DNA of 64,000 nt from a virus: positions 43,458 to 107,457 of the IMG/VR virus record IMGVR_UViG_3300029908_000004. One strand, given 5' to 3'. The translations under genes and the position numbers were made by a program. Numbering within the stretch: the stretch's first letter is position 1; every line of letters begins with the position of its first letter. The notes below the pieces were generated by a model, which was given only the letters and a program-made list of their open reading frames with translations, was not told the DNA's origin and searched no databases. Positions 3,049 to 16,575 of the stretch are shown here, one piece after another.

Positions 3049-3147
3049 AATTGTCCTTTTCTTGGAGCTGGTGACCGAAGTCGAATCGATAACCTCTACT
3101 TTACGAAAGTATTGCTCTTCCAATTGAGCTACACCAGCGTTGATATC

Positions 3148-3232
3148 TGGAGCGAGAGACGGGATTTGAACCCGCATGTCTTTCAACGGTAGCTTGGAAG
3201 GCTACTGACCAACCGAGTAGGTCATCTCCCGC
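3148..3232 (-). tRNA. tRNA-Gly (anticodon UCC) with atypical 13-nt variable arm, CCA encoded
   Basis: Acceptor GCGGGAG/CTCTCGC with U73, as in bacterial tRNA-Gly. D-arm GACC-TACTCGGTT-GGTC. Anticodon arm GTAGC-CTTCCAA-GCTAC. Variable region CGTTGAAAGACAT can form a small stem (GTT-GAAA-GAC). T-arm GCGGG-TTCAAAT-CCCGT. Confidence 0.7.
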
Positions 3233-6481: not shown

Positions 6482-6766
6482 AAAATCTTAGGTGGATATA
6501 ATTGGAATTGGATATTTCGGATATCTTAGTCCAGCAAACATCACCAGCGTCAAATATCCTACACCTTTATGTGGTCAAAGGTAACCGCACTGACTTCTCA
6601 ATACTAGTAGTGTCTTAACCAGACACAGGCTTATAACTATTTAACCTCTGTGTTTGCTATTCTTTCAAATAGCTCTTCTCTATCAGAGAAGGTTTAATTG
6701 TCCCCGAGGTAACGGGTACTTGCACGGTTATAGAGATAACCAAGTTCCGGCGACCCACCAAAGGTC

Positions 6767-7246: not shown

Positions 7247-7610
7247 TCTCTCGGATATGGATTGACAAAGGTATTGCCTGCACGCAGGCTGTCATTTTAA
7301 TTGTAGATAACCTTTATACTTCGACCCGAGATTCTTTGTTGCTTAAGATGTAGATTGATAAGGGAATGCCTTTTCCCGAGATGGATCCGGGAACCACTGT
7401 AGGCAACAGCTAGCTTGCGCTTTTAGATAACCCTTGTCGTTCGACCCTAAGCGGAATTTATATTGTTATGGATATGGATTGATAAGGTTATGCCTTATTT
7501 GGGTATCGAAACCCGCTGCAGGCGACAGTTAGACTTTCGTCCATCCAGATAATCCTCGTCGGTCGACCCATAACAAAGTTGTTAAAACTACTTCTTTTTA
7601 CCACCCTTAC
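7247..7610. repeat. tandem array of 3 degenerate ~120-bp repeat units, each with bipartite motif GATAAYC-N7-KTCGACCC and GATTGAYAARGG submotif
   Basis: Motif copies at 7296-7317, 7416-7437, 7538-7559 (spacing 120/122 bp). Submotif GGATATGGATTGA at 7243, 7341, 7460. Confidence 0.6.
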
Positions 7611-7826: not shown

Positions 7827-7905
7827 TGGTGGATCGTATGAGAATCGAACTCATCTGAAATCTTCTTTGCAAAAGAAGTGACCACCCCGTGCAGTCCCAC
7901 AACCC
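7827..7905 (-). tRNA. tRNA-Ala (anticodon UGC), CCA encoded
   Basis: Acceptor GGGTTGT/ACGATCC including the G3:U70 Ala identity pair. Anticodon arm CTTCT-TTTGCAA-AGAAG. T-arm ATGAG-TTCGATT-CTCAT. Confidence 0.75.
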
Positions 7906-7911
7906 ATTTAT

Positions 7912-8442
7912 ATGCCAATTCGTAACTGTTTATATTGTAACAAACTATTTGATGCTCCACAACGTGATATTACCAGAGGTAATGGTAAATACTGTTCCAG
8001 GAAATGCTCTGGAAACTATAAGAGCTCTCTTCCTAGTAAAGCTCCTATTATAGAGCTTACTTGTGCTTATTGTAATAGTACATTTACTAAGCCTTCCAGA
8101 TACGTTAGAAAAGCCAATTCTAGAAGCGGATTGCGCTTTTGTAACCGTAAGTGTAAAGAACTTGGACAGCGATTAGACGGTGGTAACATAAAAGCTATAC
8201 AACCATCTCATTTTGGCACAGGTACCGGAGAACACCATTATAGAGCAAAAGCTCTAAACGCATTCCCAAATAAGTGTAATAGATGTGGATATGATGAATT
8301 AATAGGGATCCTTGTTGTACACCACAAGGATCGTAACCGTTCCAATTCTCATCTATCAAACTTAGAGATTCTGTGCCCAAATTGTCACGCTAAAGAACAT
8401 TACATTAATCACGATGGATCGTATAGCTCAAAGAGAAAATGA
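7912..8442 (+). CDS. HNH homing endonuclease with N-terminal zinc-finger repeats
   Basis: HNH motif VVHHKDRNRSNSHLSNLEILCPNCH plus repeated CxxC pairs. Opposite strand to neighbours, directly adjacent to tRNA-Ala and the repeat array. Confidence 0.8.
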   Translation: MPIRNCLYCNKLFDAPQRDITRGNGKYCSRKCSGNYKSSLPSKAPIIELTCAYCNSTFTKPSRYVRKANSRSGLRFCNRKCKELGQRLDGGNIKAIQPSHFGTGTGEHHYRAKALNAFPNKCNRCGYDELIGILVVHHKDRNRSNSHLSNLEILCPNCHAKEHYINHDGSYSSKRK

Positions 8443-8541
8443 TGCTGCTTTGCAAGAGCATTGCTCTCCCGAATGAGCTAAGAGCCCACGTCGTGCTTTC
8501 CTATTTAGTATACCACCAAATGTTGGAAAACACTAGAATCT

Positions 8542-8802: not shown

Positions 8803-8960
8803 GGTAGTTGTATAAACACGTGTCTGGAACTACGATTGTTTACGTTAATCTCGGTGCTTTACCATTGAGCTACTCAGGCATATGTTTTGGGGCCCGAGGA
8901 GAGCATCGAACTCTCATACCCGATTTTGAAAGAAATCGTCTACCAGATGTTGTTTCTACC
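8803..8960 (-). ncRNA. candidate Y RNA (YrlA-like) with circularly permuted tRNA-like module
   Basis: Minus strand 5'->3' in order: T-arm GAGAG-TTCGATG-CTCTC, acceptor-3' CTCGGGC, loop CCCAAAACATAT, acceptor-5' GCCTGAG, TA, D-arm GCTC-AATGGTAA-AGC. Flanks pair as an interrupted helix GGTAG/CTACC, AAACA/TGTTT, TCTGG/CCAGA, CGATT/AATCG. Confidence 0.4.
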
Positions 8961-13529: not shown

Positions 13530-15230
13530 TTACTCCGCTTCTGCTTCTTCAGTTTCCAATACTTCCGTTTTCCCTGAAACGAATTGGGCAATCAACGAAG
13601 GCACATTGGTATCGAATCCAACCACGTCCAACGAACGTACATCGTTTGGATCTGCGATCGAGAATCCAGTTGCTGTCATCCCGATGACAATCTGATGAGC
13701 GTTACGTCCAGAACTCTGACGATAGCTCTCCAAAGCGCTAAATACGTGTTTAGGTCCTGCCCAAGTCTCGTTGTCAGTGATGTTGACAAACACATCGACT
13801 GGCATCTTCTTTTCTTGTGCATCCTTATATGGAAGTGAACAATCTGTTCCTCCCCACCCTGTGCGTAGTGCCTTGGATATTGCTGCGTCTAGCTTCATGG
13901 ATTTAACCAATCCAACATCAATCATCTTGGTGTTGTAGGAAGCAACGTGATGCCATGGCTCATTATGCATGATTACCATAGCCATTGCTACTGCACCCAT
14001 GATTGGTGACATGTTTGGACAACCAACAAGATTTCCCCATCCCATTGAGCCGGAACAATCCAAGCCAATGTAATAGTTCAAATTGGTGGTTTCAGCATTC
14101 TTAAACGTCTTATAGAACGCTGCGTCCATAGCATCCAAAACTGGTTTCACCACTGTCCAAGTCAACGAGCCACGAATGCCATGACCAGTTTGATAGGTTA
14201 ACATAGCATTCAGAACAGTTAGTGGGTGAACACGACTACGTTGCAGATATTCCTGATCCGACAGACGTGTTACTACTAGCTTTGACGCCTCTGATAGAGG
14301 AGCTAACAGCTTGATGCTACTCATCTTACCAAGGTTCCTGATCATTGCGTTCATGGGCATTTTCTGAAGCAATGCCTCCCAAACTGCAACGTGGTTCAAT
14401 GCCTCTGTAGGGATCATTTCGCGAGTGAGGTTGTACTTCTGAATCGCTGAAATGATTACCTTTGGGTCTTTTTCATTCTTCATTGCCTCGAACTGCTTAA
14501 TCAGTTCTGGCAAGTCCTTCTCTAAATCGGTTGCTCCGTGCAGACCTTTGGTAGCCCAATCAAACAAGGCTTTCTGCCCATTCGACAACGTAGCATGGGT
14601 ACCTGCATGGGTGGCACGAAGGATGTCGCGATGGCTCCATCCTTGTGTTCCATCCACACGCCGTGATTGGTATTTCACCATCTGATAAGCCAGTTTCTGC
14701 TCATCTTTCTGTGTGTACCAATCTGCTACGCCGTTGCGTAGTGACCTATTCCAACGCATCTTTGCGGCACCTTCGGCCTGTTTTGACCGCATGCCTTTCA
14801 GATATTCCATTAGTTGGAACAAATGCGTTCCGATACGTGCTACGTCTGGCAGTTTATCCAAGGCGTAACCACGAGTGGATTTGTCACCGAATGCTATACA
14901 CTGTGCCAACGCGAACAGGGCATAGTCATTCTTTGGAGCCCGGCCAGATACAGAGATATCGACAATCGTTTTTACTGTCTTCTCTCCATCTGCCGAAATA
15001 CAGCGTTCAACGCACTTTGCGTTGTCACGCGTCAACTTGTCGGCACCAACATAATAAGTGCCACCTTCGCTTCCAAGAATTATAAATCTCTGGAGTCGGT
15101 CCCAGTCACTCAGTTCAAAAACATAACCTCCAGCGTTATTCTGAACTTGATTCTTTTCTGGGAATGGTTCACTTTGAGGAATTGTTGGCTTCATCGCCCC
15201 ATACACATTTGTTAGGTTGGGTTTCTTCAT
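13530..15230 (-). CDS. rsr: Ro60/Rsr ortholog (TROVE domain + vWA domain with MIDAS)
   Basis: N-terminal TROVE-like segment (YVFELSDWDRLQRFIILGSEGGTYYVGADKL). C-terminal vWA with MIDAS DxSxS (YYIGLDCSGSM). Length 566 aa typical of bacterial/phage Rsr. Confidence 0.8.
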   Translation of the reverse strand: MKKPNLTNVYGAMKPTIPQSEPFPEKNQVQNNAGGYVFELSDWDRLQRFIILGSEGGTYYVGADKLTRDNAKCVERCISADGEKTVKTIVDISVSGRAPKNDYALFALAQCIAFGDKSTRGYALDKLPDVARIGTHLFQLMEYLKGMRSKQAEGAAKMRWNRSLRNGVADWYTQKDEQKLAYQMVKYQSRRVDGTQGWSHRDILRATHAGTHATLSNGQKALFDWATKGLHGATDLEKDLPELIKQFEAMKNEKDPKVIISAIQKYNLTREMIPTEALNHVAVWEALLQKMPMNAMIRNLGKMSSIKLLAPLSEASKLVVTRLSDQEYLQRSRVHPLTVLNAMLTYQTGHGIRGSLTWTVVKPVLDAMDAAFYKTFKNAETTNLNYYIGLDCSGSMGWGNLVGCPNMSPIMGAVAMAMVIMHNEPWHHVASYNTKMIDVGLVKSMKLDAAISKALRTGWGGTDCSLPYKDAQEKKMPVDVFVNITDNETWAGPKHVFSALESYRQSSGRNAHQIVIGMTATGFSIADPNDVRSLDVVGFDTNVPSLIAQFVSGKTEVLETEEAEAE

Positions 15231-15314
15231 TTTCTTTTGACCTCTTACGAGACTACCAAGATAATCTGGCTTCTCGCATCCTTTATATTTGCTTTGGAGA
15301 TTTTGGTTTACCCT

Positions 15315-15473
15315 TTAAGAACGATTTTCTTTGGTGAGCAGCTGGGCAACCGTTTCCAGTGAATTGAAGCTTGGGACGTGGGCGTCTGGAGGCGCTGGGT
15401 GCAAACCCTTTGCCACAGCCGTCATCTCCTCACGCAACGATTTCAGCGATTGAATTTTCAACTTGCTCGTCAT
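15315..15473 (-). CDS. small GC-rich ORF (52 aa), hypothetical
   Basis: ATG with weak GGGGTG SD; GC-rich codon usage unlike neighbours; not in ORF track. Confidence 0.3.
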   Translation of the reverse strand: MTSKLKIQSLKSLREEMTAVAKGLHPAPPDAHVPSFNSLETVAQLLTKENRS

Positions 15474-15499
15474 CCTACACCCCGGATATGATGTTGCAT

Positions 15500-16110
15500 A
15501 GGGTTTGTTGTCAAGGTAACCCTACGCGTTCGACCCGTGGTCGAATTTTGTTGCTATGGATATAATACGATTGAAGGCGTTTTTATCTGCAATGATTGAT
15601 AACCTTCATTCTTCGACCCATAGCCGATATTAATAGAGTGGATATAAACAACTTTGCTGGGATATTGTTTAAATTAGCAGTTTAAGGTAACCCAACGATC
15701 TCGACCCACTCCATGATTTGATGGTGGAAAGAGGTATTGTATGTTTGGCCCAACACCGGCCTAGATATATCCGCAGTGCTGGTTTCCTCTCTTACAAATT
15801 ACCTAGTTCTAGGCACCAAATAACCGTAAGCCACCAAACTTTATTACTTCGTTTCAAAATCTTTAATATCTAGTAGATATAAATTTGACTGGATGTTTTA
15901 GAGTGTCCTGCCAATTAGACGATGCCGGTTACCCGGTAGAGAGATTCGAACTCCCATAACCCGCTCCATAGGCGATAACCCAATCGGGTCGACCCACTAG
16001 ATAAATTCATTTGCTCCCTAGGAGCGCTTTACATTCTTATGGTGTGGATATAAACAACTTAGTCAGGAAGTTTATCAAAGTAATAAGGTAATCCTAACTA
16101 TTCGACCCAA
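15500..16110. repeat. repeat-rich intergenic region upstream of rsr with 5 further copies of GRTAAYC-N7-KTCGACCC
   Basis: Motif copies at 15525-15546, 15598-15619, 15686-15707, 15974-15995, 16087-16108. Recurrent GTGGATATAAACAACTT submotif at about 15550, 15641, 16044. Confidence 0.55.
15905..16000 (-). ncRNA. second tRNA-mimic module (T-arm, short acceptor hairpin with GTAA loop, D-like arm)
   Basis: Minus strand: GGGAG-TTCGAAT-CTCTC, then TACCGG-GTAA-CCGG, then GTC-TAATTGGCAG-GAC. Flanks TATCTAGT and ACTAGATA can pair. Located 0.7 kb upstream of rsr. Confidence 0.3.
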
Positions 16111-16231
16111 ACCATTTCCTATGCGAGGAGCAATAACAATATAATAAAGAGAACTGGGTGAAGGTTCCAGAAAGCCAGAATTAGTGCTCCCTTTCCTAGT
16201 AGGGCAAGTAGAATTAGAATTAATATCATAA

Positions 16232-16462
16232 TTACCTCTCAATTGTTGTTTCTTCTTCTTCTTTGTGTTTATTTCTTAGAGAGAGAATCATACGGGAAAC
16301 TTCTTCTGCCGTTAACATTACGTCTCCCATCCTTCTGAACGCTTCTGCTAAGTTAGTAAGTGTTAGGTCGTAAAGGGTATCCATCCCATTTTCCACAATT
16401 TCCTTTACTCCACTTTCTTTCTTTTGATCCACAAACCATTTATCCCAAAACATAGTATTCAC
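16232..16462 (-). CDS. hypothetical protein (76 aa)
   Basis: Intact ORF directly downstream of tRNA-Asn. Confidence 0.5.
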   Translation of the reverse strand: MNTMFWDKWFVDQKKESGVKEIVENGMDTLYDLTLTNLAEAFRRMGDVMLTAEEVSRMILSLRNKHKEEEETTIER

Positions 16463-16498
16463 CTTAAGTGTTTCTACTTCCCGTAGTATTCTCTAAAT

Positions 16499-16575
16499 TG
16501 GCTGAGAGGGAGGGATTCGAACCCTCGGAATCTCTGGCTTAACAGGCCAGCGCATTACCACTTTGCTACCTCTCA
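16499..16575 (-). tRNA. tRNA-Asn (anticodon GUU), CCA encoded
   Basis: Acceptor TGAGAGG/CCTCTCA, anticodon arm CTGGC-CTGTTAA-GCCAG (as in E. coli tRNA-Asn), T-arm GAGGG-TTCGAAT-CCCTC, discriminator G. Confidence 0.85.

What the first reader, a model, noticed from the sequence alone, without database searches (positions are those of the whole stretch)
15905..16000. Second tRNA-mimic element 0.7 kb upstream of rsr
On the minus strand a T-arm (GGGAG-TTCGAAT-CTCTC) is followed by a short GC hairpin with a GNRA-like GTAA loop (TACCGG-GTAA-CCGG). Next comes a D-arm-like hairpin containing TTGG (GTC-TAATTGGCAG-GAC), again in permuted order. An 8-bp flanking helix (TATCTAGT/ACTAGATA) closes the element. 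It sits in the rsr upstream intergenic region, where Y RNA genes are typically found. It also overlaps one copy of the GRTAAYC-N7-TCGACCC repeat. The fold is less clean than the 8.8-kb element.
Basis: seen in the sequence. Interest (0 to 1): 0.55.

Follow-up and report, generated by a model that had tools for sequence, protein, structure and literature searches.

The report
Phage Y RNA with tRNA-like domain
The element is a real, conserved gene for a small RNA of a known kind, a Y RNA carrying a tRNA look-alike domain, which sits upstream of a phage gene for the Ro60 protein and is one of about ten Y-RNA-like genes in this stretch.

Summary
The complete RNA is 137 nt, at window 16003..15867 on the minus strand, 637 nt upstream of rsr on the same strand.

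In 5'-to-3' order it contains:
- a 12-bp terminal helix
- GGGUCGA
- a 6-bp second helix
- UUAUC
- a small V hairpin
- a T arm
- a closed acceptor-like hairpin
- U-C
- a canonical D arm
- the return strands

This is the published YrlA layout (Chen et al. 2014). An ortholog next to the closest available rsr relative with upstream sequence, plus four more phage-like metagenome contigs, keep every helix through compensatory changes. 98.4% of cells are paired and 12 pairs show double changes. No shuffle out of 500 matched this. The tertiary 15:48 pair also covaries.

A covariance model built from these six RNAs finds the YrlA loci of Mycobacterium phage Catera and Gordonia phage Cashline. Rfam's own YrlA model misses the element, but it also scores those phage loci below its threshold.

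The "overlapping repeat" is the Y-RNA signature itself (GNCGA-N8-GRUUAYC). It marks nine units in the window.

The element is a new member of a known kind. Expression and Rsr binding are untested.

The parts
15867..16003 (-). Complete YrlA-type Y RNA gene (137 nt)
   Evidence: The extent is set by the 12-bp terminal helix. It is the only part of the 1070-nt rsr upstream region with blastn similarity to L001 (73.6% over 125 nt). The R1 model scores 83.8 bits on 15895..15978.
15992..16003 (-). Terminal helix H1, 5' strand (UAUCUAGUGGGU)
   Evidence: 12/12 standard pairs with 15878..15867. H1 is paired at 8-15 bp with unrelated sequences in the five homologs.
15867..15878 (-). Terminal helix H1, 3' strand (AUCUACUAGAUA)
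   Evidence: The AUCY next to the junction is conserved in all window paralogs.
15989..15995 (-). GGGUCGA, the presumed Rsr/Ro60-binding motif
   Evidence: It corresponds to the GNCGAA motif of YrlA and to metazoan GGUCCGA (PMC4201824). Here it reads GUCGAC, so 5 of 6 positions match. The same motif heads nine units in the window.
15980..15985 (-). Helix H2, 5' strand (GAUUGG)
   Evidence: It pairs 6/6 with CCAGUC at 15892..15887. H2 covaries among the homologs and among the window paralogs.
15887..15892 (-). Helix H2, 3' strand (CCAGUC)
15974..15978 (-). UUAUC, the conserved YUAY motif
   Evidence: YUAY is conserved in YrlA RNAs (PMC4201824). GGUUAUC also appears in the nematode sbRNA consensus printed. 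In the compact relative L002 this UUAUC is itself the variable loop.
15956..15973 (-). V insert: GCCUAUGGAGC hairpin, then GGGU (stem S3 5' strand), then UAU (variable loop ending in U48)
   Evidence: The 20-mer GUUAUCGCCUNUGGAGCGGG retrieved the homologs, so its invariance among them is by construction. GGGU pairs with ACUC at 15904..15901, and RNAalifold predicts the same stem. That stem varies on one side only.
15939..15955 (-). T arm GGGAG-UUCGAAU-CUCUC
   Evidence: The stem has 5 bp, and 4 of its 5 pairs show double changes across the homologs. The loop fits the tRNA T-loop consensus.
15923..15938 (-). Closed acceptor-like hairpin UACCGG-GUAA-CCGGCA
   Evidence: 5/6 pairs here and 6-8 bp in the homologs, with entirely different sequences. 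5 of 6 pairs show double changes.
15921..15922 (-). U8-N9 linker (UC)
   Evidence: The U is invariant in all six sequences. YrlA consensus is UA (bioRxiv 10.1101/312249).
15905..15920 (-). D arm GUCU-AAUUGGCA-GGAC
   Evidence: 4-bp stem, with double changes in 3 of 4 pairs. A15 matches U48, and this pair switches to G15:C48 in L001 and L020.
15901..15904 (-). Stem S3, 3' strand (ACUC), the analog of the anticodon stem
   Evidence: 4/4 pairs in all six sequences, with one-sided changes only.
13530..15230 (-). rsr (Ro60 ortholog, 566 aa), the presumed protein partner
   Evidence: TROVE and vWA_Ro60 domains. 41% identity to 'Ro-like RNA binding protein' of Gordonia and Mycobacterium phages.
16041..16113 (-). 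Paralogous Y-RNA-like unit (no tRNA-like domain)
   Evidence: H1 8/9 and H2 6/6. Weak Rfam YrlB match on exactly these coordinates (16.6 bits, E 4.9).
15480..15714 (-). Three more Y-RNA-like units in tandem (15714..15633, 15624..15553, 15540..15480)
   Evidence: Each has GGGUCGA-N8-GGUUAYC with H1 and H2 paired and covarying.
7249..7576 (-). Second cluster of three Y-RNA-like units (7576..7463, 7452..7341, 7331..7249)
8823..8942 (-).
   Evidence: Rfam YrlA 26.6 bits, E 0.0081. R1 35.1 bits, E about 9e-7.

Best explanation
Window 16003..15867 (minus strand) encodes a 137-nt noncoding Y RNA of the YrlA class.

The 5' and 3' ends pair into a long stem made of H1 and H2. This stem carries GGGUCGA, the counterpart of the Ro60-binding GGUCCGA/GNCGAA motif. 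The RNA most likely binds the phage-encoded Rsr ring through it.

The distal half folds like the elbow and acceptor limb of a tRNA. It has a T arm, a closed acceptor-like hairpin, U8, a D arm, and the loop nucleotides needed for the G18/G19-T-loop, U8:A14 and 15:48 contacts. This half most likely serves as the effector module. It would tether Rsr to a tRNA-recognising partner or to a host exoribonuclease such as PNPase, and gate access to the Rsr cavity, as shown for bacterial Y RNAs and for a Thermus phage Ro60.

The RNA is probably cut from a polycistronic precursor together with the neighbouring Y-like RNAs and tRNAs.

Shown here: the sequence features, conservation, covariation and kinship to phage YrlA loci. 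Inferred: transcription, Rsr binding, the partner protein and the biological role.
For: 1. The layout matches YrlA module by module (PMC4201824; bioRxiv 10.1101/312249).
2. The ortholog next to the 72%-identical Rsr in L001 is the only conserved stretch of the upstream region.
3. Six homologs give 231/234 standard pairs over six helices in a hand alignment.
4. On the MAFFT alignment A3, 98.4% of cells are paired against 81.3% in shuffles. 12 pairs have double changes against 5.6, with 0/500 shuffles as high. Slid controls give 42-53% paired.
5. RNAalifold independently recovers the T, AS, D and S3 helices.
6. The tertiary Levitt pair covaries. It is A15:U48 in four sequences and G15:C48 in two.
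7. Model R1 hits the YrlA loci of phages Catera (46.7 bits) and Cashline (39.4 bits), and the 8.8-kb element (35.1 bits).
8. A homolog sharing the same V motif (L014) hits Rfam YrlA at E 1.1e-6.
9. The element lies on the same strand as an intact rsr, 637 nt upstream of it.
10. Eight units in the window share the Ro-site signature, with 121/123 pairs in H1 and H2.
11. A phage Ro60 has been shown to bind phage Y-like RNAs and host PNPase (PMC12135203).
Against: - Rfam YrlA gives no hit on the element even at E<=10. The known phage loci also fall below that model's gathering score of 69: Catera scores 36.1 and Cashline 42.2.
- The T and D stem sequences differ from the nearly invariant ones of bacterial YrlA.
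- The Ro-site reads GUCGAC, not GNCGAA.
- The linker is UC, not UA.
- The model fold lies 9.6 kcal/mol above the MFE.
- The homolog set is small (six sequences). Five of them were retrieved through a shared 20-mer, so that part is invariant by construction.
- There is no sigma-70 promoter or terminator match on the minus strand within the Y-RNA array (15480..16113). The only minus-strand promoter-like match lies upstream of it, at 16315..16287.
- There is no transcript or binding evidence.
Confidence: 0.85

Rival explanations
1. A decaying remnant of two adjacent tRNA genes: the T arm and acceptor 3' strand of one, a spacer, then the acceptor 5' strand and D arm of the next. It would have no function of its own.
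For: A real tRNA-Gly/tRNA-Thr junction at 3175..3114 satisfies the same descriptor. It also scores 20.9 bits with R1. The window holds ten tRNA genes on this strand. A dimeric-tRNA origin of YrlA has been proposed (bioRxiv 10.1101/312249).
Against: The hairpin is closed and short. No anticodon arms or outer tRNA halves flank it, and ARAGORN and Rfam call no tRNA there. The module sits inside a Y-type stem carrying the Ro-site motif. All helices are maintained by compensatory changes in distant relatives, which argues against decay.
Confidence: 0.04
2. A tRNA-like processing signal. The structure would serve only as a punctuation mark, recruiting RNase P or RNase Z to cut a long precursor carrying tRNAs, Y-like RNAs and the rsr mRNA.
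For: The units are packed 8-32 nt apart with tRNA genes on the same strand, and no promoter or terminator matches lie between them. M. smegmatis YrlA is cleaved by RNase P (PMC4201824).
Against: The acceptor-like stem has only 6 positions with an A.C mismatch. RNase P cleavage was tied to a 7-bp stem (PMC4201824). A bare processing signal would not need the GGGUCGA stem, the UUAUC motif or the conserved V insert. The other eight GGGUCG-type units lack a tRNA-like part and would still need processing.
Confidence: 0.07
3. The GGGTCGA-N8-GGTTAYC repeats act at the DNA level, as promoters, operators or iterons for a phage protein. On this view the tRNA-like part is incidental.
For: Eight to nine copies share one orientation, and most lie in two intergenic clusters. 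No sigma-70 promoters were found, so a phage-specific promoter cannot be excluded.
Against: Each copy is flanked by helices whose two strands lie 50-270 nt apart and covary (121/123 pairs). That is a property of RNA. The same signature heads the Y RNA loci upstream of Ro genes in actinophages. It also appears in the nematode sbRNA consensus.
Confidence: 0.03

Closest known systems
YrlA (Y RNA-like A; Rfam RF02553), tRNA-mimicking Y RNAs of bacteria and phages (Chen et al. 2014, PMC4201824; Wang et al. 2018, bioRxiv 10.1101/312249)
   Same: It lies near rsr on the same strand. It has a Ro-site motif near the 5' end within a stem formed by the two ends. It has the YUAY motif, a V region, a T arm, a closed acceptor-like hairpin of variable length, a U-N linker and a D arm. 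The T- and D-loop nucleotides needed for the tRNA elbow are present, and the 15:48 pair covaries.
   Different: The T and D stem sequences are not the nearly invariant bacterial ones, and they covary freely within this phage group. The Ro-site is GUCGAC and the linker is UC. An 18-nt insert with an invariant GCCUNUGGAGCGGGU lies before the T arm. The Rfam model does not detect the element.
Y RNA loci of actinophages upstream of 'Ro-like RNA binding protein' (Mycobacterium phage Catera/Bxz1 group; Gordonia phage Cashline)
   Same: They share the same signature, G[GC]CGA-N8/9-GGUUAYC, and 2-3 tandem units, one or two of them tRNA-like. Each has a V hairpin with a 7-nt loop before the T arm and AAAC after the D arm. 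R1 scores them at 36-47 bits.
   Different: They have 2-3 units against nine or ten in the window. The V-loop sequences differ. The genomes are high in GC. Rsr identity to the window protein is only about 41%.
Thermus phage phiLo Yrl1/Yrl2 with phiRo60 (PMC12135203)
   Same: Phage-encoded Y-like RNAs lie upstream of a phage Ro60 gene and carry a CGAA motif in a stem-bulge-stem. This is the only phage system with binding data (Ro60 and host PNPase).
   Different: The passages I read do not describe a tRNA-like domain for Yrl1 or Yrl2. I made no sequence comparison with them.
Metazoan Y RNAs and nematode stem-bulge RNAs
   Same: They share the order and spacing of the 5' motifs. GGUCCGG, 8 nt, then GGUUAUC appears in the sbRNA consensus printed, against GGUCGA, 8 nt, then GGUUAUC here. 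The stem is likewise formed by the two ends.
   Different: They have no tRNA-like domain (PMC4201824). The 3' strand of the Ro60-binding helix (UUGAC) is not recognisable here.

Membership tests
YrlA-class Y RNA | Encoded within about 4 kb of a Ro60 ortholog, on the same strand | tested here: met
   The 3' end of the element at 15867 lies 637 nt upstream of the rsr start at 15230, and both are on the minus strand. Rsr has TROVE and vWA_Ro60 domains.
YrlA-class Y RNA | GNCGAA(N0-1)G motif near the 5' end (presumed Ro60 site) | tested here: inconclusive
   The element has GUCGAC-CCG, so 5 of 6 core positions match and the final A is C. Five of the eight GGGUCGA units tabulated read GUCGAA there. 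The ortholog in L001 reads GGCGAA.
YrlA-class Y RNA | Conserved YUAY at the start of the V/variable region | tested here: met
   UUAUC at 15978..15974 is invariant in all six homologs. Catera and Cashline have UUACC.
YrlA-class Y RNA | T stem-loop with the tRNA T-loop consensus | tested here: met
   GGGAG-UUCGAAU-CUCUC. 4 of 5 stem pairs show double changes across the homologs.
YrlA-class Y RNA | D stem-loop with A14, R15, G18, G19 and A21 | tested here: met
   GUCU-AAUUGGCA-GGAC. 3 of 4 stem pairs show double changes.
YrlA-class Y RNA | Closed acceptor-like hairpin of variable length between the T and D arms | tested here: met
   UACCGG-GUAA-CCGGCA here. The homologs have 6-8 bp with unrelated sequences, and 5 of 6 pairs show double changes.
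YrlA-class Y RNA | Covarying Levitt pair 15:48 (G:C or A:U) | tested here: met
   A15:U48 in the window, L021, L017 and L014. G15:C48 in L001 and L020. G15:C48 is also seen in the compact L002 RNA.
YrlA-class Y RNA | UA dinucleotide linking the acceptor-like stem to the D arm | tested here: inconclusive
   The window has UC. The U is invariant, and the second base is A, C or G among the homologs.
YrlA-class Y RNA | Nearly invariant T and D stem sequences (GCGGG/CCCGC and GCUC/GAGC in the Rfam consensus) | tested here: not met
   The window has GGGAG/CUCUC and GUCU/GGAC. Within this phage group the stems vary. L014, Catera and Cashline keep bacterial-like stems.
YrlA-class Y RNA | Match to Rfam RF02553 at its gathering score (69 bits) | tested here: not met
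   No hit at E<=10. The test is not discriminating for phages. The Catera locus, which belongs to a phage group in which Chen et al. reported YrlA-like RNAs, scores 36.1 bits. The Cashline locus scores 42.2 bits.
YrlA-class Y RNA | Sequence-and-structure similarity to accepted phage YrlA loci | tested here: met
   Model R1, built only from the six V-type RNAs, hits Catera at 46.7 bits (E about 1e-9) and Cashline at 39.4 and 36.4 bits over the full model length.
YrlA-class Y RNA | Bound by Rsr; carries tRNA-type modifications (Psi55, D) | not testable with these tools
   Needs immunoprecipitation or EMSA, and CMC or alkaline primer extension.
tRNA (including permuted or split tRNA) | Anticodon arm and open acceptor stem with a free 3' end | tested here: not met
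   ARAGORN and Rfam tRNA find nothing at 15867..16003. The acceptor-like stem is closed by GUAA.

The most novel reading that the evidence does not exclude
This roughly 215-kb phage pairs a single Rsr with an unusually large set of adaptors: nine GGGUCGA-type Y-like RNAs plus a compact YrlA, each with a different distal module. Two of them are tRNA mimics. The set could direct one Ro60 ring to several different partners or substrates during infection.

Within the V-type subgroup, the invariant hairpin before the T arm has a 7-nt loop, C-U-N-U-G-G-A. This fits the anticodon-loop pattern (Y32, U33, three bases, R37), and the only variable base sits at the wobble position. The RNA could therefore mimic a whole tRNA including an anticodon arm, with the Ro60-binding stem branching from its side. 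That differs from the Salmonella YrlA, which lacks an anticodon loop.
Probability: 0.15. Interest if true: 0.6.

Novelty: new member of a known kind. Interest (0 to 1): 0.38.

Why it matters
This adds a well-supported YrlA-type RNA from an uncultivated jumbo phage. It also shows that Rfam's YrlA model misses phage members, including the loci upstream of the Ro genes of the actinophages Catera and Cashline, so such RNAs are probably under-annotated.

The repeat signature GNCGA-N8-GRUUAYC is a cheap way to find whole Y-RNA arrays. The window has nine or ten units, against two to five in the relatives and known phages examined here.

In this group the T and D stems covary instead of being invariant. 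That bears on the proposal that the YrlA effector reads the tRNA elbow with sequence specificity. Either these phage RNAs use a different partner, or shape alone is enough.

None of this changes the basic picture established in 2014.

Tried and rejected
- The Rfam gathering scan of the window found only tRNAs. The permissive scan of 15200-16500 gave no YrlA hit.
- Megablast of the locus against phage genomes found nothing.
- The search for related loci with Rsr in viral contigs found no relative. Two motif scans of viral contigs returned nothing.
- The closest Rsr relative (P0002, 75% identity) has no DNA on file.
- Eight contigs carrying the identical Rsr are 100% identical in the upstream region and so give no information.
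- The genome-contig scan gave one hit, in a Gemmataceae genome, with no T arm. I treat it as chance. Three of the ten metagenome hits (L012, L018, L019) are likewise chance. L013 and L016 have the V motif and T arm but an aberrant or missing D arm, so I left them out of the alignment.
- The MFE fold of the element uses an ACCCGA/CGGGUU pairing that is absent in the relatives. I rejected it in favour of the conserved H2.
- RNAalifold's two small helices in the invariant V region conflict with the covarying H2, so I did not adopt them.
- ViennaRNA eval_structure crashed in the sandbox. I used constrained folding instead.
- Two Wolin-lab reviews are not in the held library.
- Pfam on ten neighbouring ORFs gave no RNA-repair context. 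It found only an AAA ATPase, an HNH domain and a DUF7873.

Full report
**What is in the sequence**

All features lie on the minus strand. The T arm GGGAG-UUCGAAU-CUCUC is at 15955..15939. It runs directly into the hairpin UACCGG-GUAA-CCGGCA (15938..15923). Two linker bases, UC, follow. Then comes a D arm that reads best as GUCU-AAUUGGCA-GGAC (15920..15905). Its 8-nt loop has A14, A15, G18, G19 and A21 in tRNA numbering.

The flanking helix is 12 bp, not 8: UAUCUAGUGGGU at 16003..15992 pairs with AUCUACUAGAUA at 15878..15867. The RNA is therefore 137 nt and extends beyond the reported 15905..16000. No ORF of 40 aa or more lies within it. One plus-strand ORF (15718..15873) overlaps its last 7 nt.

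ARAGORN and Rfam call no tRNA there. I wrote a descriptor for a T arm, then a closed hairpin, then U, then a D arm. It finds three sites in the window against 0.01 per dinucleotide shuffle. They are this element, the 8.8-kb element, and the junction of two real neighbouring tRNAs at 3175..3114. The whole RNA folds with z = -2.86.

**The "overlapping repeat" is part of the RNA**

GGTCGA-N8-GRTTAYC occurs eight times, always on the minus strand, against 0.02 expected.

Each copy has two sets of pairing partners:
- The bases before GGGU pair with the bases after a downstream AUCY (helix H1).
- The 4-8 bases ending in GG just before UUAYC pair with a CC-initiated stretch further downstream (helix H2).

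Over the eight units, 121 of 123 positions form standard pairs, although the helix sequences differ from unit to unit. A ninth unit at 6759..6491 is about 269 nt long and starts GGUGGGUCGC.

The same signature heads other Y-type RNAs:
- the three units upstream of the Ro gene of Mycobacterium phage Catera and the two of Gordonia phage Cashline
- the Rfam consensus of nematode stem-bulge RNAs, which reads GGUCCGG, 8 nt, GGUUAUC

Chen et al. describe GNCGAA as the likely Ro60 site and YUAY as a conserved motif of YrlA (PMC4201824). The repeat is therefore the Y-RNA stem signature. The finding is the one unit in the rsr-proximal cluster whose distal part is tRNA-like.

**Relatives**

The gene at 13530..15230 encodes a 566-aa Ro60 ortholog with TROVE and vWA_Ro60 domains. 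The identical protein occurs on contigs of up to about 215 kb. Their upstream regions are 100% identical and so give no information.

The closest relative with usable upstream sequence is L001, whose Rsr is 72% identical. Its 750-nt upstream region shares blastn-level similarity with the window only across this element (73.6% over 125 nt). In L001:
- the T stem is GAGGG/CCCUC
- the acceptor-like hairpin is UGUCAG-CUUAUAAA-CUGACA
- the D arm is GUGU-AGCGGCA-ACAC
- the terminal helix has an unrelated sequence but still pairs

A metagenome scan with the shared 20-mer GTTATCGCCTNTGGAGCGGG returned ten loci. Five (L014, its duplicate L015, L017, L020 and L021) have the same full layout, giving four distinct sequences in GC-poor to GC-rich, tRNA-rich, phage-like contigs. 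Two (L013, L016) are partial variants and three are chance. L002 (Rsr 70% identical) carries a compact version directly upstream of rsr. In it H2 is followed by UUAUC and then the T arm, so UUAUC is itself the variable loop.

**Covariation**

A hand alignment of the six full RNAs gives 231/234 standard pairs over H1, H2, S3, T, AS and D.

For a tool-based count I used the MAFFT alignment A3, which covers UUAUC through the region after the D arm:
- 98.4% of cells are paired, against 81.3% in shuffles.
- 12 of 21 pairs show double changes, against 5.6 in shuffles. No shuffle out of 500 reached either value.
- Sliding the partners by 1-3 columns gives 42-53% paired.
- Double changes occur in 4 of 5 T pairs, 5 of 6 acceptor-like pairs and 3 of 4 D pairs.

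RNAalifold on an independent MAFFT alignment recovers T, AS, D and a 4-bp stem S3. S3 joins GGGU before the T arm to the four bases after the D arm. It varies on one side only, so it is plausible but not proven.

The tertiary Levitt pair covaries. It is A15:U48 in the window, L021, L017 and L014, and G15:C48 in L001 and L020. This is the behaviour reported for YrlA (PMC4201824).

There are three caveats:
- The set has only six sequences.
- Five of them were retrieved through the V 20-mer, so that segment carries no information.
- The conserved model lies 2-10 kcal/mol above each MFE (-34.0 against -43.6 for the window).

**Family membership**

Rfam's YrlA model gives no hit on the element at E<=10, so that test is not met. 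The same model scores the Catera locus at 36.1 bits and the Cashline locus at 42.2 bits, both well below its gathering score of 69. Chen et al. reported YrlA-like RNAs in mycobacteriophages. The model also scores L014, which shares the V motif, at 43.9 bits with E 1.1e-6. The threshold is therefore not informative for phages.

In the reciprocal test I built model R1 from the six V-type RNAs only. It hits Catera at 46.7 bits, Cashline at 39.4 and 36.4 bits, and the 8.8-kb element at 35.1 bits. It also hits further sub-threshold Rfam YrlA sites in L020, L021 and L002, all over the full model length. Weaker hits fall on tRNA-tRNA junctions, as expected for this topology.

The alignments show that the actinophage RNAs share several features with the element:
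- the UUAYC start
- a small hairpin with a 7-nt loop before the T arm
- the U-N linker
- AAAC after the D arm

One published YrlA feature is clearly absent: the nearly invariant T and D stem sequences. Two are only partly met: GUCGAC in place of GNCGAA, and UC in place of UA. I file the element as a YrlA-class Y RNA of a phage subgroup, not as a new kind.

**How it most likely works**

By analogy, H1 and H2 with GGGUCGA bind the outer surface of the phage Rsr ring, and the tRNA-like half is the effector module. Three findings support the analogy. In D. radiodurans and S. Typhimurium, Y RNA tethers Rsr to PNPase (PMC4201824). YrlA folds into a true tRNA L-shape lacking a free CCA end and an anticodon loop (bioRxiv 10.1101/312249). 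A Thermus phage Ro60 binds two phage Y-like RNAs and forms a ternary complex with host PNPase (PMC12135203).

RNase P cleavage seems unlikely for the 6-position stem with its mismatch. In M. smegmatis, cleavage was linked to a 7-bp stem (PMC4201824).

No sigma-70 promoter or terminator matches lie on the minus strand within the Y-RNA array. The only minus-strand promoter-like match lies upstream of the array, at 16315..16287. Within each tandem run the units sit 8-32 nt apart, and tRNA genes share the strand. A processed polycistronic precursor is therefore the likely source. All of this paragraph is inference.

**Rival explanations**

I considered three rivals and rate each unlikely:
- A decayed tRNA dimer. 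This is contradicted by the compensatory conservation and by the embedding in a Y stem.
- A pure processing signal. This does not explain the Ro-site stem, the UUAUC motif or the V insert.
- DNA-level repeats. These do not explain long-range covarying helices.

**What is mildly new**

- The window holds nine GGGUCG-type units plus the compact YrlA at 8.8 kb. Relatives and known phages examined here hold two to five.
- Two of the window's RNAs are tRNA-like.
- The V insert carries an invariant loop CUNUGGA whose pattern resembles an anticodon loop. This is speculative.
- The T and D stems covary within the group.

These points raise the interest somewhat, but the element itself is an ordinary member of a family described in 2014.

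Noticed in passing
window 15730..15850 (-); L001 6055..6205 (+): A second conserved block lies between the YrlA-type RNA and the next Y unit. It has AGAGGAAACC and a 22-nt stretch, GGGCCAAACAUACAAUACCUCU, that is identical in the window and L001. The block is closed by GGUGG/CCACC in the window and AGGUAG/CUACCU in L001. It has no GNCGA motif and no Rfam hit. It is probably another structured RNA of unknown type.
   Followed up: partly
window 6491..6759 (-): A ninth, much longer Y-like unit of about 269 nt. It starts GGUGGGUCGC...GGUUAUC and ends UUAUAUCCACC. H2 has 8 bp with a bulged C. It sits immediately upstream of tRNA-Asp.
   Followed up: partly
window 8823..8942 (-): The 8.8-kb element is a compact YrlA-type RNA with a 7-bp acceptor-like stem (CUCGGGC/GCCUGAG). 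[quoted passage not shown] Its stem motif is GGUAGACGA rather than GGGUCGA.
   Followed up: partly
window 7463..7576 and 7341..7452 (-): Two Y-like units in the 7.3-7.6 kb cluster carry distal modules with GNRA hairpins (GAC-GAAA-GUC, GC-GCAA-GC). Unit 7576..7463 also has a T-arm-like GGGU-UUCGAU-ACCC. This recalls the T arm reported in M. smegmatis YrlB.
   Followed up: no
window 7827..8487: An HNH endonuclease ORF on the opposite strand (7912..8442, +) lies between tRNA-Ala(UGC) at 7827..7905 and a weak partial tRNA-like match with a UGC anticodon loop at 8415..8487 (19.6 bits). It may be an interrupted or duplicated tRNA-Ala.
   Followed up: no
window 3114..3177 (-): The tRNA-Gly/tRNA-Thr junction, with a 9-nt spacer, satisfies the YrlA-type descriptor and scores 20.9 bits with model R1. 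It illustrates the proposed origin of YrlA from dimeric tRNA transcripts.
   Followed up: partly
window 16012..16026 (-): A small hairpin, GCUCC-UAG-GGAGC, lies in the 37-nt spacer between the 16113..16041 unit and the YrlA-type RNA. It could be a processing site.
   Followed up: no
L014, L021, L017 (metagenome contigs): The homologous Y RNAs sit inside dense phage tRNA arrays. L014 has more than 20 tRNA genes in 2.1 kb immediately upstream. Several loci carry both a V-type and a compact tRNA-like Y RNA (L020 at 281 and 437; L021 at 433 and 888).
   Followed up: partly
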